This document shows positions 1-53,980 of a DNA stretch of 64,000 nucleotides, in pieces. The DNA lies in NCBI GenBank assembly GCA_964016885.1, contig OZ024747.1, positions 73,966,001-74,030,000 of the forward strand, read 5' to 3'. The position numbers and the translations under genes were made by a program. The first letter of the stretch is position 1; each line of letters begins with the position of its first letter. The notes under the pieces were generated by a model, which was given only the letters and a program-made list of their open reading frames with translations, ran no database searches and was not told the DNA's origin. The DNA is from Eledone cirrhosa (taxonomy: Eukaryota).

Positions 1-823
1 GGATCTATTGATATGGTCATGTACAGAGCCTATATGTAAGGATCTATTGCTCTTGTCATGTACAGAGCCTATATGTAAGCATCTATTGCTGTTGTCATGT
101 ACAGAGCCTATATGTAAGGATCTATTGATGTGGTCATGTACAGAGCCTATATGTATGCATTTATTGCTGTTGTCATGTACAGAGCCTATATGTAAGGATC
201 TATTGCTGTTGTCATGTACAGAGCCTATATGTAAGGATCTATTGCTGTGGTCATGTACAGAGCCTATATGTAAGGATCTATTGCTCTTGTCATGTACAGA
301 GCCTATATGTAAGGATCTATTGATGTGGTCATGTACAGAGACTATATGTAAGGATCTATTGATGTGGTCATGTACAGAGCCTATATGTAGGGATCTATTG
401 CTGTTGTCATGTACAGAGCCTATATGTAAGGATCTATTGATGTGGTCATGTACAGAGACTAAATGTAAGGATCTATTGCTGTGGTCATGTACAGAGCCTA
501 TATGTAAGGATCTATTTCTGTGGTCATGTACAGAGCCTATATGTAAGGATCTATTGATTTTGTCATGTACAGAGTCTATATGTAAGGATCTATTGATGTG
601 GTCATGTACAGAGCCTATATGTAAGGATCTATTGCTGTTGTCATGTACAGAGTCTATATGTAAGGATCTATTGATGTTGTCATGCACAGAGCCTATATGT
701 AAGGATCTATTGATGTGATCATGTACAGTGCCTATATGTAAGGATCTATTGATGTGGTCATGTGCAGAGCCTATATGTAAGGATCTATTGATGTGGTCAT
801 GTAGAGAGTCTATATGTAAGGAT
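1..823. repeat. 39-bp minisatellite (~21 copies, runs off the left edge)
   Basis: The unit GGATCTATTGATGTGGTCATGTACAGAGCCTATATGTAA repeats head-to-tail with small variants. ORF 8..718 (WSCTEPICKDLLM)n is a by-product of the 13-codon period. Confidence 0.97.
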
Positions 824-2480: not shown

Positions 2481-2861
<381 letters not shown>

Positions 2862-2929
2862 CTATTATTACTATATATATATATATATATATATATTATT
2901 ACTATATATATATATATATTTATTATTAT

Positions 2930-3020
<91 letters not shown>

Positions 3021-3170
3021 TATATATATGTGTGTGTGTGTGTTTACCTATTGATGTTTATGCATATATAATTGTATATCCATAAACGGATATATGTATA
3101 TATGTATATACTTATGCATCTATGAATGTATGTACGGATGTATGTATGCATGTATGTATTTATGCATATA

Positions 3171-3246
<76 letters not shown>

Positions 3247-3248
<2 letters not shown>

Positions 3249-3410
3249 AAATAAAGTTAAATAAAAAGTCAAATGATTAAAATTTAGCTTTGTTTATTAC
3301 TGCTATATATATTTCAGTGACAGCCAAAGATGGCTGTCACTGAAATATATATAGCAGAAATAAACGAAGCTAAATTTTAATCATTTGACTTTTTATTTAA
3401 CTTTATTTTA
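3247..3410. repeat. Fold-back inverted repeat (~79-bp arms, 6-nt loop) of an HHR-bearing element end
   Basis: The centre reads CAGTGACAGCC-AAAGAT-GGCTGTCACTG. Each arm continues GAAATATATATAGCAG, like the 3' half of the HHR at 52685-52740. Confidence 0.9.
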
Positions 3411-3515
3411 CACTACTCCGGAGTAACCAAACCAACCTGCGCACTTCCTCGAGTGCTCCAGCCTGCATACTGAGGTGTTGGTATACAACCAACATAAACT
3501 CAAAATCTCTCTCTA

Positions 3516-3629
<114 letters not shown>

Positions 3630-8139: not shown

Positions 8140-8145
<6 letters not shown>

Positions 8146-8396
8146 GTTTGTATATGTATAATAAAGCCAAAACAATGCAGGTATGGACATAGAATAAAGA
8201 ATGCAAATGCAAAAGATATTGTTGACAATTAGTCTTTTACCTTAAATAAATCTAAGGTAAAAGACTAATTGGCAACAATACCTTTTGCATTTGCATTCTT
8301 TATTCTATGTCCATACCTGCATTGTTTTGGCTTTATTATACATATACAAACGTTTATACCTCATTACACAATGCTTCAAGTGAACTATAACTTCCT

Positions 8397-11570: not shown

Positions 11571-11689
11571 TATTGAAATATCAGATTAAAGTTTAAGCAA
11601 AGAATCGGTACTTTCACCCATAACGGGATCTTCATAAGATCCCGTTATGGATGAAAGCAGTGATTCTTTGCTTAAACTTTAATCTGTTA

Positions 11690-11697
<8 letters not shown>
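11571..11697. repeat. Fold-back inverted repeat (~62-bp arms) with apex in a hammerhead-like core
   Basis: The centre is GGGATCTT-CAT-AAGATCCC. The left arm on the minus strand reads TGAAGA-TCCC-GTTAT-GGGT-GAAA-GTAC. Same family as 20680-20750. Confidence 0.85.
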
Positions 11698-21186: not shown

Positions 21187-21338
21187 TGTTATACTTTGGG
21201 AGGGTCATGTTGCCAATAAGAAACACACGCACCAATGGCTTTCACTTCAATTTATTATAATAAATTTATATATTTAGGAATTTATAAATTTCTGGTTGGT
21301 TAGTTGGTTCCACAACCAGATAGTTGTTTATATATATT

Positions 21339-21381
21339 GTCAAAGTTCTTTCGTCACACATTCTGTGACCTCTTCAGTGAC
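21339..21381 (-). ncRNA. Minimal type I hammerhead motif in PLE 3' UTR
   Basis: GTCA-CTGAAGA-GGTCACAGAATGTGTGAC-GAAA-GAAC-TT-TGAC, with stem I GTCA/TGAC and stem II GTCACA/TGTGAC. Confidence 0.75.
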
Positions 21382-21561
21382 TGGGGATTCTTTTCTTTGT
21401 TTGTGTGCCTCTCCTTTGTTCTGTCTACGCCATTTTGTTTCTGTGTGTGTGTTGTGTGCTCAGTCTGCGCATGCGCCACATCCGGGTGTCTGTGTGTTTA
21501 TATTTGTTTTTTATTTGTTTATTTACATTGTTTGTTCTATGTGTGTGTTTTCATTTTGTCC

Positions 21562-22135
21562 TTAATTGTAAGTTGTGATGTTGCTGTTCCACTCATATTT
21601 TCTATTTAATTTTGGTTGTAATTCCTTTATGTTTATTGCCTCTGTGATTTGTCTAAACATTGCATCTTTTCTGTGTGTAGATTCTATTTTTATTTCTATG
21701 TTCTCTAATTTACCCCGATGTTCTATTTTAGCATGTTGGTAGAGTACAGATGATTCTTTACTATCTTGAAGGTCTCGCCAGTGTTCATTTATCCATTCCC
21801 CTACACTACGAGCTGTCTCACCTATGTACACTATATTTTTGTCTCTACATTGTCCTTCAGTACATCTTATGCTATACACTACATTTCTAGTTTTACAGTT
21901 AATGTGGGGGCTTATTTTACAGGTTATACATTTCTTATCTATACAGGGGGTCTTTGGAAAGGGTATGTCTTGCTAATAAGTGTTTTTACGGAGGTACCTG
22001 GTCTTTCTACTATCTTAATATTGAGTTTATGTTTATCTAGGGCCCTTCTAAATTTGTAAGCTAATTCACCTCTAGGGGTTGTATCGATGAACATTACACT
22101 CTGGTATTTATTGCTATCATACCATGAGTTTATTC
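21562..22135 (-). pseudogene. PLE GIY-YIG endonuclease domain plus upstream linker (frameshifted)
   Basis: VYSIRCTEGQCRDKNIVYIGETARSVGEWINEH...QH...RQITEAINIKELQPKLN matches the PLE GIY-YIG pattern. The upstream piece is VMFIDTTPRGELAYKFRRAL...VERPGTSVK. Confidence 0.88.
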
Positions 22136-23967: not shown

Positions 23968-24423
<456 letters not shown>

Positions 24424-30044: not shown

Positions 30045-30170
30045 ATAGGAAAACATATTACTCCGACGGCAGAGCCCAAGCCGTTTCGACGGCTATTTCT
30101 GGACTAAATAGTCCAGAAATAGCCGTCGAAACGGCTTGAGCTCTGCTGTCGGAGTAATATTTTTTCCTAT
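30045..30170. repeat. Fold-back inverted repeat (~62-bp arms, 2-nt loop)
   Basis: The centre is GACGGCTATTTCTGGACTA-AA-TAGTCCAGAAATAGCCGTC, followed by GAAACGGC. It ends in (TA)n. Confidence 0.9.
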
Positions 30171-31524: not shown

Positions 31525-31803
31525 AAGAATATAATGTACATAGGTGAGACAGCTCGTAGTATAGGGGAACGGATAAATGAACACTGGCGAGACCTTCAAG
31601 ATAGTAAAGAATCATCTGTACTCAACCAGCATGCTAAAATAGAACATAAGGGTAAATTAGAGAACATAGAAATAAAAATAGAATCTACACACAGAAAAGA
31701 CGCAATGTTTAGACAAATCACAGAGGCAATAAACATAAATGAATTACAACCAAAATTAAATAGAAAACATGAGTGGAACAGCAACATCACAACTTACAAT
31801 TAA
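31525..31803 (+). pseudogene. PLE GIY-YIG endonuclease C-terminal part
   Basis: YIGETARSIGERINEH...QHAKIEH...RQITEAININELQPKLN. Confidence 0.85.
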
Positions 31804-32005
31804 GGACACAATGAAAACACACATGCACATAGAACAAACAACCAACCAGTAACATGTAAATAGACAAATAAATAAACGAATATAAACACACACAGACACT
31901 CGGATGTAACACATGGGCAAACTAAGCACACAATACACACACAAAAACAAGATGGCGTAGGACAGAACAAAGGAGAGACACAAAAAACAAAGAAAAGAAT
32001 CCCCA

Positions 32006-32047
32006 GTCACTGAAGAGGTCACAGAATGTGTGACGAAAGACTTTGAC
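32006..32047 (+). ncRNA. Minimal type I hammerhead motif in PLE 3' UTR
   Basis: GTCA-CTGAAGA-GGTCACAGAATGTGTGAC-GAAA-GAC-TT-TGAC. Loop III is 1 nt shorter than in the 21.3-kb copy. Confidence 0.7.
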
Positions 32048-32193
32048 AATATATAAACAACCATCTGGTTGTGGAACCAACCAACCAACCGGAAATTTAT
32101 AAATTCCTAAATTTATAAATTTATTATAATAAATTGAAGTGAAAGCCATTGGTGCGTGTGTTTCTTATTGGCAACATGACCCTCCCAAAGTAT

Positions 32194-32259
<66 letters not shown>

Positions 32260-40177: not shown

Positions 40178-40566
40178 AATAATTGTTTCTACTTTAGGCA
40201 CAAGGCCAGCAAATACCCAGTACACTACTGGTACTTTATTTTATCGACCCCGTAAGGATGAAAGGCAAAGTTAACCTCGGCGAGATTTGAACTCAGACTG
40301 TAAAGGGACGTAACTATGCTAGAAAGCATGGTGTCTGACGCTCTACCGATTCTGCCAATCTACCACCCAAAAAGTCTAATAATAATTGTTTCTACTTTTG
40401 GCACAAGGTCAGCAATTACCCAGTGCATTACTGGTACTTTATTTTATCGACCCCGTAAGGATGAAAGGCAAAGTCAACCTCGGCGGGATTTGAACTCAGA
40501 TCGTTAAGGGACGTAACTATCCTGGAAAGCATGGCGTCCGACCCTCTACCAATACTGCCAATCCAT
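40178..40566 (-). mobile_element. Two tandem full-length SINE family A copies
   Basis: Copies at 40178-40366 and 40380-40566, each with the family body and A/B boxes. Confidence 0.9.
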
Positions 40567-47295: not shown

Positions 47296-47458
47296 AAATT
47301 TCGCTCTACATGGCTGAATACAATGAATGTAATCTCAGATTTTCGAATATTATTAATAACATTCGATTCGTTTGAAATTTAGAAAACAAGCCTCAATTTT
47401 ATAGCCATGTCAGGAGAAAGAACACCTCCTTCTTGCTCTTGTGTTGGCATGCGAACAG

Positions 47459-47506
47459 AACTGCAGACACTACTGTTTCTGGGTATCACCCTTTATCAGT
47501 ACAGCT
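47459..47506 (-). ncRNA. Hammerhead copy with core mutation (CTGATAA)
   Basis: AGCTGTA-CTGATAA-AGGGTGATACCCA-GAAA-CAGTAGTG-TC-TGCAGTT. G8 is changed to A. Confidence 0.7.
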
Positions 47507-48265
47507 CACTGTTCACCTGCCAAACTGTCAGAGCTGGTGAAAATATATGCTATTTTCAAAAATACACAGTGACTGATCGGCCTGATTTGCATATTAGCAG
47601 ACTGGCTGATCAGTCAGATCAGTCAGATCAGCATATTAGCAGATCCACTGATCAGCCAGATTTGCATATCAGCAGACTGGCCAGTCAGTTTCCTGTATAC
47701 GAGCGATAAGTGGTCGGCTTTGCCAAATTCAAATAAAAAAGAAAATTTCGCTCTACATGGCTGAATACAATAAATGTAATCTGAGTTGTTCGATTATTAA
47801 TAACATTCGATTCTTTGCAATTTTGCAAACGAGCCTCAATTTTATAGCCATGTCAGTAGAATGAACACTTCATTCTTGCTCTTATGTTGGCATGCGAACA
47901 GAACAGAACTCCTGACATGGCTATAAAATTGAGGCTTGTTTGCAAAATTGTAAACGAATCGAATGTTATTATTAATATTCGAAAACCTCAGATTACATTT
48001 ATTGTATTCAGCCATGTAGAACGAAATTTTCTTTTTTATTTGAATTTGGCAAAGCCGGCCACTTATCGCTCGTATACAGGAAACTGACTGGCCAGTCTGT
48101 TGATATGCAAATCTGGCTGATCAGTGGATCTGCTAATATGCTGATCTGACTGATCTGACTGATCAGCCAGTCTGCTAATATGCAAATCAGGCCGATCAGT
48201 CACTGTGTATTTTTGAAAATACCATATATTTTCACTAGCTCTGACAGTTTGGCAGGTGAACAGTG

Positions 48266-48313
48266 AGATGTACTGATGAAGGGTGATATCCTGAAACATT
48301 AGTGTCTGCAGTT
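48266..48313 (+). ncRNA. Canonical type I hammerhead ribozyme motif, predicted cleavage after GUC at 48306
   Basis: TGTA-CTGATGA-AGGGT(GAT)ATCCT-GAAA-CA(TTAG)TG-TC-TGCA. All core residues are present and stems I-III pair, with some G-U. Confidence 0.85.
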
Positions 48314-48723
48314 CTGTTCGCAGGCCAACATAAGAGCAAGAAGGAAGTGTTCATTCTACTGAGATGGCTATAAAATTGAGGCTTGTTTGCAAAATTGCAA
48401 ACGAATCAAATGTTATTATTAATATTCGAAAAACTCAGATTACATTTATATATATATATATATATTATATGTACATGCGGTTTCCCTTTGACACGAACAC
48501 GCATCAGAGAGTACGTCGAAAAAAACGATCCCACATATAAATGAGAATAACGCAGTTTACCGTCACGCAAGTGTAACAAAGTTAACACATCTCTAACATA
48601 GATGTGTATTTAGCACTTTGTGTTTTTACACTAAAATACAAACATATAAATAGTACATATACTTTTTCTTCACCTTAGGAATCTTAGAAAAACCAACTGA
48701 AGAAATTTCGTTTTTTTTCTATG

Positions 48724-52637: not shown

Positions 52638-52640
<3 letters not shown>

Positions 52641-53135
52641 TGACGAAACATAAGTCAATTGCATGAACTTACAATCCTTTATTTACTGCTATATATATTT
52701 CGATGATAGCCATTGAATGGCTATGACCTCATCAGGCAGTTAGTCAGTTCTTAGATATGCCAGCTCTGTGTTTATAGTGTTGATGGTATCAGGGCCTTGG
52801 GTCATATGAGCTTGTTAGGAATAATTTAATGTTGTCAGCAGGAATAATCTTAATTCTCATTGGACAGTTTGTAGACGCTAGTAAGGTTGGTATTTGACCT
52901 CAAAGAGGCAGGTGGTGTTGTAAAGTTCAAACCATCAGGCAAGATGACAATAGTTCCATATGACTGATTTTCACAAAAAGCATTCCTGGTCAGATATATA
53001 TTCAATTGGGGTTTATAGTATGAAATTCGATACTACAGGTCAATCTTAAATTGAGGAAAGTATGTAGGGTGGTACTAATGAAAATTATGGTTAGAATAGA
53101 ATACTAGAAAATTTACATATAAAAAGACTAATGTC
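52638..53135 (-). mobile_element. PLE 3' fragment (decayed endonuclease C-terminus plus 3' UTR with HHR)
   Basis: The minus strand encodes ...SYGTIVILPDGLN (PxGLN-type ending of PLE GIY-YIG domains), followed by an HHR and AATAAA. Confidence 0.6.
52685..52740 (-). ncRNA. Type I hammerhead motif with palindromic stem III
   Basis: ACTGC-CTGATGA-GGTCATAGCC(ATTCAAT)GGCTATCATC-GAAA-TATATA-TA-GCAGT. Stem I ACTGC/GCAGT is perfect. Confidence 0.8.
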
Positions 53136-53439: not shown

Positions 53440-53547
<108 letters not shown>

Positions 53548-53549
53548 TA

Positions 53550-53980
53550 ATATATAAGAACAAAAGATGGTTAAAGGAGTTCCATGTATTTTATTATGCG
53601 CATTTCAAAAACAAATATCATCATGCAATAATATTTGTGTTTTCATCAGGTAAAACAGGAGGACATGATATGAAGGCTAAAAAACACTTGTGGATAGTTC
53701 AGTTTTAAATCAACATATCAAGATATGTTGATTTAAAACTGAACTATCCACAAGTGTTTTTTAGCCTTCATATCATGTACTCCTGTTTTACCTGATGAAA
53801 ACACAAATATTATTGCATGATGATATTTGTTTTTGAAATGCGCATAATAAAATACATGGAACTCCTTTAACCATCTTTTGTTCTTATATATTATGTATAC
53901 TCCAGTCCTACAAACTGTAGAGTGCTTCTTATCCGATATCTGCATTGCTTTATTGTACTACAATAAAACTCACCTCTTAC
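53550..53980. mobile_element. PLE-like end as a near-perfect palindrome (~170-bp arms, 2-nt loop) with an HHR in each arm
   Basis: The apex is CAACATATC-AA-GATATGTTG at 53720-53721. The same peptide appears in the + and - ORFs. Flanked by (TA)n. Confidence 0.9.
53786..53852 (+). ncRNA. Type I hammerhead motif (mirror copy at ~53589-53655 on the minus strand)
   Basis: TTTTAC-CTGATGA-AAACACAAATATTATT(GCAT)GATGATATTTGTTTTT-GAAA-TGCGCA-TA-ATAAAA. Confidence 0.75.

What the first reader, a model, noticed from the sequence alone, without database searches (positions are those of the whole stretch)
3247..3410. Genomic palindrome whose apex is the hammerhead stem II loop
Seen: the palindrome centre TGACAGCC-AAAGAT-GGCTGTCA-CT-GAAA-TATATATAGCAG aligns with stem II, GAAA, stem III and stem I' of the HHR at 52685 (TCATAGCC-ATTCAAT-GGCTATCA-TC-GAAA-TATATATAGCAG). 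The CUGAUGA half is replaced by the mirror arm. Inference: cDNA stalled in stem II, snapped back on the natural hairpin and self-primed second-strand synthesis. The ribozyme fold would then dictate the geometry of the insertion.
Basis: partly seen in the sequence, partly recalled or inferred. Interest (0 to 1): 0.75.

Follow-up and report, generated by a model that had tools for sequence, protein, structure and literature searches.

The report
Penelope stub joined at ribozyme stem
This DNA palindrome is a short back-to-back insertion of an abundant Penelope-like jumping gene, one of at least 21 that meet exactly in the stem II loop of its hammerhead ribozyme motif; it likely forms when two separately started DNA copies of one RNA are joined by a brief fold-back at that stem, a minor route (about 1 in 100 such insertions) rather than the rule.

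Summary
The palindrome is real (80-bp arms, 2 mismatches, 4-nt loop) and is a head-to-head stub of a Hydra-type Penelope-like element; the insert runs on 97 nt (tail) to 3507. About 5,950 intact copies carry CUGAAGA upstream of this hairpin. The in-register stem II apex recurs: 17 of 81 short junctions genome-wide, 21 copies held. But it is about 1% of inverted insertions; most arms stop about 135 nt further upstream, likely the RNA start. Pure snap-back second-strand synthesis fails: 65 of 66 junctions pair a long arm with a short one, and in 12 of 21 the mirror arm is longer than the arm it would have been copied from. Best model: two target-primed cDNAs from one RNA, joined through stem II. 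Brief fold-back there is supported by two partial snap-backs and by a stem-perfecting C>G that is 48:14 biased to the strand a cDNA would alter. Symmetric junctions also cluster at the predicted ribozyme cut (11 of 19), though overall breakpoints there are not enriched (14 vs 12). This scan found twin priming before in this and other genomes. No long reads were available.

The parts
3247..3326 (-). Short (mirror) arm: pLTR 3' part from family position -11 to +67 (G of GAAA = 0), ending at the fixed short 3' end; no CUGAAGA
3320..3507 (+). Long (loop-carrying) arm: family position -22 to +164
3320..3337 (+). Native hammerhead stem II hairpin (7 bp, AAGA loop at 3327-3330); 3320-3326 is the 7-nt overlap shared by both arms, i.e. 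the junction
   Evidence: reads of ordinary copies diverge at 3320
3342..3357 (+). 3' half of a minimal type I hammerhead (GAAA, palindromic stem III, stem I 3' strand); predicted cut between 3353 and 3354; predicted inactive here because the CUGAAGA half is missing
   Evidence: sequence; fold of an intact copy; cut position from established hammerhead numbering (own knowledge)
3411..3507 (+). 97-nt tail present on one arm only; in partial tandems it runs straight on towards the ORF, so its end is an internal site of the RNA
2754..3246 (.). (TA)n-rich target, left flank; no target-site duplication can be read
3508..3625 (.). (TC)n then (TA)n right flank; (TC)n begins at the tail end, as in several other copies
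52640..52760 (-).

Best explanation
This is a head-to-head stub of a Penelope-like retrotransposon whose two arms meet in the stem II loop of its hammerhead motif; it was likely made by two cDNAs primed from the two nicked target strands at the element's two fixed start points (+164 and +67) on the same RNA, and likely joined when one cDNA passed the stem II loop, folded back on its own 7-bp hairpin and thereby gained a 3' end complementary to the other cDNA. Shown: family identity, the long+short arm rule, shared alleles between arms, the stem II spike, both loop orientations, partial fold-backs and the C>G bias. Inferred: two priming events, one RNA, intramolecular (rather than between-cDNA) pairing, and repair of the joined intermediate. 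Stem II acts here as the longest local inverted repeat, not as a catalyst, and accounts for about 1% of inverted insertions; most cDNAs likely run off the RNA 5' end at -155.
For: Family: RT-like and GIY-YIG-like ORF between pLTRs in L102. Long+short: 65 of 66 held short junctions, 32 of 34 unbiased insertions. Neither arm contains the other in 16 of 32; in 4 of 34 the long arm lies wholly in the tail (L052, L061, L116, L140). Stem II class: loop on the short arm 12, on the long arm 9 of 21. Same source: 252 of 264 diagnostic site comparisons agree within insertions against 60% between insertions (24 insertions). Spike: 17 of 81, next class 5 of 81 at a 4-bp hairpin (crude uniform null p 7e-9). 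Fold-back traces: L009 and L014 copy only about 11 nt of mirror sequence and then jump to the partner arm's end; stem-perfecting C>G at -23 is 48 vs C>A 9 of 100 listed (102 total), at the mirror site -4 it is 14 vs 8 of 54, background C>G:C>A 24:48; -23G sits on one arm only in 13 of 16 two-armed insertions and on several haplotypes. A cDNA ending at -22 folds its last 18 nt into this hairpin. In vitro, an Anolis PLE protein cuts and extends both target strands and starts at two internal sites that bound the tail (PMC11167929, parts 1-2 of 4 read).
Against: Sequence products cannot separate fold-back on the own strand from pairing with the partner cDNA. The mirror site -4 also shows a smaller C>G excess over background (p 0.014), so some correction may occur later in DNA replication. 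Deletion of the centre of a longer palindrome between the 7-nt repeats would give the same product in both orientations. 3 of 16 insertions carry -23G on both arms. Two of 34 unbiased insertions are long+long. No raw read or contig bridges this apex.
Confidence: 0.6

Rival explanations
1. Twin priming as above, but the two cDNA 3' ends pair with each other through the 7-nt stem II complementarity (ordinary microhomology joining); no fold-back on the own strand.
For: Gives both loop orientations (12:9); other junction classes sit on 2-4-nt overlaps, so stem II may simply be the longest overlap available.
Against: Stem-perfecting C>G with return to the RNA also occurs in copies with no adjacent partner arm (8 listed with partner None) and partial fold-backs copy 11 nt and leave; both are simpler on one strand, but not exclusive to it.
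Confidence: 0.2
2. Post-insertion collapse: a longer palindrome (apex near -155) lost its centre by slippage or repair between the 7-nt repeats that the stem II strands form across the two arms.
For: Would reproduce long+short arms, shared alleles and both orientations; long palindromes are known to suffer central deletions (own knowledge).
Against: Stem II palindromes are not older: arm differences 18 of 1,086 vs 17 of 1,223 sites in longer palindromes (p 0.61; my stem II set is biased to young copies by exact-match searches). Does not explain L009/L014 or the -23 bias. The product keeps a 4-nt loop and would be no more stable.
Confidence: 0.1
3. One reading: one cDNA stalls in stem II, snaps back and self-primes the whole mirror arm.
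For: Formally possible for this locus and the 9 of 21 copies whose loop is on the long arm; snap-back 5' junctions are described for R2 (PMC11371274, passages); self-priming was proposed for Penelope palindromic junctions (PMC3846280, passages).
Against: 12 of 21 mirror arms carry 97 nt that the loop-carrying arm lacks. Here the mirror arm stops at the family-wide +67 end rather than at the end of its supposed template. Non-overlapping arm pairs exist. Rescue by later flipping of the loop is needed for more than half of the copies, many with identical arms.
Confidence: 0.08
4. Assembly or library fold-back artefact.
For: No read bridges this apex in the runs available.
Against: 21 loci with different flanks and subfamily alleles, ends at the two fixed family sites, and two private arm differences here; an opposite-strand joint at the main -155 apex is seen in raw short reads (8 reads, 6 starts).
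Confidence: 0.02

Closest known systems
Endonuclease-bearing Penelope-like elements with an inverted 5'-truncated copy and a one-sided tail (PMC8557442, passages and section 11; PMC3846280, passages)
   Same: Head-to-head inverted pLTR, tail on one arm only, partial tandems, palindromes at the inverted junction, microsatellite targets.
   Different: Tail is 97 nt, not 30-40 nt; here junction positions were counted and one class lies in register with hammerhead stem II.
Hydra clade of PLEs (PMC8557442, section 11 read)
   Same: RWK, DKT, CxCX5C linker, CxxC before E and CxH after N, C-terminal GIY-YIG, hammerhead, (TA)n insertion.
   Different: Unit about 4.1 kb in L102 against generally under 3 kb; no tree was built.
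Minimal type I hammerheads of metazoan PLEs (PMC4209133, part 1 of 4 and passages)
   Same: 7-8-bp helix II, short helix I, small palindromic helix III; pairs on opposite strands 100-700 bp apart already noted there.
   Different: This locus keeps only two 3' halves and is predicted inactive.
Anolis PAc/Poseidon in vitro mechanism (PMC11167929, parts 1-2 of 4 read)
   Same: Two internal start sites bounding the tail; both target strands cut and extended.
   Different: The parts read do not model the inverted junction; they found no RNA reads ending at the ribozyme cut.
R2 snap-back 5' junctions (PMC11371274, passages) and L1 twin priming (recalled, Ostertag and Kazazian 2001, not read)
   Same: cDNA 3' end primes on itself before joining (R2); second target strand primes on the same RNA and gives an inversion (L1).
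   Different: R2 has one primer and no second arm; L1 inversions mostly do not duplicate the same RNA stretch, whereas these arms overlap.

Membership tests
EN+ Penelope-like element | ORF with RT followed by C-terminal GIY-YIG endonuclease | tested here: met
   L102 broken ORF: YRDD and YIG motifs; ESM Atlas look-alikes RT/HTH_animal 0.92-0.95 and GIY-YIG 0.95-0.97. Pfam and PDB scans gave no RT or GIY-YIG hit.
EN+ Penelope-like element | pLTRs in partial tandem or inverted arrangement with one-sided tail | tested here: met
   L102 layout; 32 of 34 long+short.
EN+ Penelope-like element | RT groups with PLE RTs in a tree | not tested
   No reference PLE proteins fetched.
Hydra clade | RWK, DKT, CxCX5C linker, CxxC/CxH around E and N | tested here: met
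   All found in L102 against PMC8557442 section 11.
Hydra clade | Insertion into (TA)n; hammerhead in pLTR | tested here: met
   Flanks; 5,948 exact motif copies.
Hydra clade | Absence of CCHH; generally under 3 kb; clade placement | tested here: inconclusive
   CCHH not aligned; unit about 4.1 kb; no tree.
Minimal type I hammerhead (intact family copies) | CUGANGA, stem II, GAAA, palindromic helix III, UH, stem I | tested here: met
   Rfam did not detect the related 52685 motif and listed no hammerhead among the 150 of 182 window matches shown.
Minimal type I hammerhead (this locus) | Complete catalytic core | tested here: not met
   CUGAAGA half absent on both strands.
Minimal type I hammerhead | Self-cleavage | not testable with these tools
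   Only indirect: 11 of 19 symmetric junctions end at +11/+12, no overall breakpoint excess.
Snap-back self-primed palindrome | Mirror arm never longer than the arm that carries the loop | tested here: not met
   12 of 21 longer.
Non-LTR retrozyme | Tandem head-to-tail units each with a complete hammerhead (bioRxiv 10.64898/2026.07.22.740005, part 1 of 5 read) | tested here: not met
   Single head-to-head stub without a full core.

The most novel reading that the evidence does not exclude
Penelope integration runs through two same-polarity cDNAs made on one RNA, at least one displaced and single-stranded; the genome records three RNA features as junction classes: the capped start (-155), the in vivo hammerhead cut (+12) and fold-back on stem II, whose abortive form rewrites the ribozyme's own stem (C>G) during reverse transcription and so drives stem-perfecting evolution of the ribozyme.
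Probability: 0.35. Interest if true: 0.7.

Novelty: new variant of a known kind. Interest (0 to 1): 0.42.

Why it matters
How Penelope-like elements build their inverted ends is called undefined in PMC8557442 (passages read). This family separates the likely RNA start (-155) from stem II (-22..-5) and the predicted cut (+12), so the three can be counted apart. It shows that stem II fold-back exists but is a minor joining route inside a two-primer mechanism, and it gives a cheap mutational read-out (-23 versus -4 conversion) that an in vitro PLE system could test. The structure itself is a known kind, and this scan has proposed twin priming many times before.

Tried and rejected
Rfam: no hammerhead hit at 52640-52860; window scan dominated by microsatellite matches to miRNA models. 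Pfam and PDB did not recognise the ORF. Sequencing runs: no RNA holder listed and no long reads; Hi-C run X11 laid 0 reads; X15 showed opposite-strand joints at the -155 apex and three other places but none at stem II; no contig piece bridges the apex; all inconclusive. Two different RNAs per insertion: not favoured, arms agree at 252 of 264 diagnostic comparisons, though two RNAs of one locus are not excluded. A perfect-stem subfamily as parent: rejected, -23G is scattered over haplotypes and mostly one-armed. Predicted cut site as a general truncation hotspot: not supported, 14 hits at +12 vs 12 at control -2; by my reading of contexts 9 vs 8 true junction events, partner ending nearby in 5 of 7 vs 1 of 7 (p 0.10). 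Cap-templated G at -155: 9 of 16 junctions with a non-native base show G (after setting aside 53 continuing, 14 in-phase (AT)n, 12 palindromic and 10 native-C cases); weak, several ambiguous. TSDs unreadable in microsatellite. Literature: 'twin priming'+'Penelope' gave 3 papers, none on this by listing; quasi-palindrome search gave none with that term among 15 listed; some searches gave the papers cited. Subscription papers and all supplements were not seen (supplements of PMC8557442 and PMC11167929 may bear on clade placement and junctions).

Full report
Observation. Window 3247-3410 pairs over 80 positions with two mismatches and an AAGA loop. It sits between (TA)n and, after a further 97 nt, (TC)n(TA)n. 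The centre resembles the hammerhead-like motif at 52675-52735, but that motif belongs to another family (77% over 97 nt). Positions below are counted from the G of GAAA (window 3342 = 0).

The family. A search with the right arm returned 52 matches among the 40 of 183 candidates scored; a 22-nt pLTR word occurs 5,959 times and the intact CUGAAGA plus stem II 32-mer 5,948 times. L102 holds pLTR, broken ORF and pLTR; the ORF has RT-like and GIY-YIG-like look-alikes and the RWK, DKT, CxCX5C, CxxC and CxH motifs of the Hydra clade (PMC8557442 section 11). Pfam and PDB did not recognise it. Intact copies fold as a minimal type I hammerhead with a 7-bp stem II, a C.C mismatch and 3 further pairs.

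Is stem II a hotspot? Four gap searches between a 16-nt anchor and its reverse complement counted every exact-anchored head-to-head junction with 0-106 nt between anchors: 9, 20, 27 and 25, total 81. Seventeen are the in-register stem II junction (14 at gap 60, 2 at 59, 1 at 62; one off-register junction at 62 not counted); the next class, 5, sits on a 4-bp hairpin. I held 66 of the 81 as loci. The spike is far above a crude uniform null (p 7e-9). It is nevertheless minor: 25 close pairs among the first 100 hits imply roughly 1,500 inverted pairs, so about 1% (2 of 34 in the sample). In that sample 37 of 100 arms end at -161..-150 and 14 of 34 insertions have at least one arm ending at -160..-152; raw short reads also show an opposite-strand joint there. 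I infer that -155 is the RNA start; the evidence is indirect (weak extra-G signal).

How the arms are made. Arms end at +67 or at +164; 65 of 66 short junctions and 32 of 34 unbiased insertions have one of each. The tail continues into the ORF region in partial tandems, so both ends are internal RNA sites, as for the Anolis element, which also cuts and extends both target strands (PMC11167929, parts 1-2 of 4). In 16 of 32 insertions the short arm reaches further upstream, so neither arm contains the other; in 4 the long arm lies wholly within the tail. Among 21 full stem II palindromes the loop is on the short arm in 12 and on the long arm in 9; the 12 cannot be self-copies. This locus is one of the 9, but its mirror arm stops at +67, not at the end of its supposed template. 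Arms share subfamily alleles (252 of 264 comparisons in 24 insertions, against 60% between insertions), so both derive from one RNA or one source locus. Inference: twin priming.

What stem II does. Two loci show about 11 nt of mirror copy followed by a jump to the partner arm's end (L009, L014). A fold-back that returns to the RNA would convert -23 C to G and, because cDNA copies the 3' strand first, would leave the mirror site -4 alone. Observed: at -23, G 48, A 9, T 43 of 100 listed (102 total; counted by hand from the listing); at -4, G 14, A 8, T 32 of 54; both sites share the same 5-nt context; background C>G:C>A is 24:48 in 116 sampled arms. 48 vs 14 gives p 2e-5, but G against A alone between the sites only p 0.07, and -4 is itself above background (p 0.014). 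The G allele lies on several haplotypes and on one arm only in 13 of 16 two-armed insertions (6 long, 7 short), on both in 3 (these loci were the subset fetched, not all 48). This supports brief pairing at stem II during cDNA synthesis, but cannot prove it is on the own strand.

The predicted cut. After noticing it, I found that 11 of 19 symmetric junctions have their inner end at +11/+12, the predicted cleavage site, mostly with no overlap and with fillers. Against this, breakpoints at +12 are no more frequent overall than at a control position (14 vs 12 hits; about 9 vs 8 true events). The pattern fits a rare cleaved template on which both cDNAs stop, and is suggestive only.

Rivals. Pairing between the two cDNA ends gives the same product (0.2). 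Central deletion of a longer palindrome also would, but stem II copies are not older (1.7% vs 1.4% arm difference) and it does not explain the partial fold-backs (0.1). Pure snap-back is contradicted by the 12 short-loop copies (0.08). Artefact is unlikely given 21 loci with distinct flanks, though no read bridges this apex and no long reads were offered.

Known and new. Inverted pLTRs with a one-sided tail, palindromic junctions read as self-priming, minimal hammerheads on opposite strands and R2 snap-back junctions are in print (PMC8557442, PMC3846280, PMC4209133, PMC11371274; passages or parts read as listed). My searches listed no paper on twin priming in PLEs or on stem II junctions; subscription papers and supplements were not seen. 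Earlier notes of this scan already propose twin priming, run-off at the RNA start and junctions at the cut; several say apices mark RNA starts rather than stem II. This family agrees for the bulk and adds that an in-register stem II class exists apart from the start, with a strand-biased mutational trace. Verdict: real, a new variant of a known kind, interest 0.42.

Noticed in passing
window 53543-53898: 356-bp palindrome (98%) beside (TA)n with a CUGAUGA-containing motif on each strand (53649 minus, 53792 plus) and a one-sided continuation; probably a head-to-head stub of another Penelope-like family.
   Followed up: no
window 21187-21840 and 31525-32197: Inverted pair 9.7 kb apart, 90% alike, each with a hammerhead-like motif (21377 minus, 32010 plus); looks like an inverted Penelope-like insertion with other DNA between the arms.
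   Followed up: no
window 47326-48446: 1.1-kb imperfect palindrome (481-nt arms, 94%) with an internal partial repeat and a CUGAUGA...GAAA motif at 48273.
   Followed up: no
window 8143-8354, 24036-24317, 30048-30167, 11576-11692, 2692-2753: Further short palindromes next to microsatellites; 2481-2637 matches one arm of 8143-8354.
   Followed up: no
window 52640-52790 and L139:2626-2776: The 52685 hammerhead family has a 98% copy in L139, so it is a separate young repeat family.
   Followed up: partly
window 1-823 and 40178-40563: 39-bp tandem array (21 copies) and a 203-bp SINE-like dimer.
   Followed up: no
L121, L123, L125, L131, L139, L116: Recurrent internal rearrangements near family position -235 (an AC-like microsatellite or a 150-nt duplication) and near-identical compound insertions L121/L123; subfamilies of rearranged copies seem to propagate.
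   Followed up: no
L065:1617-1635 (family +133..+151): An AC-rich stem-loop just before the +164 end, reminiscent of the stem-loop at the Anolis initiation sites (PMC11167929).
   Followed up: partly
L055, L074, L104, L110: Both arms stop at the same arbitrary position (-97, -147, -274, -170), often with a templated filler, as if both cDNAs ran off one broken RNA.
   Followed up: partly
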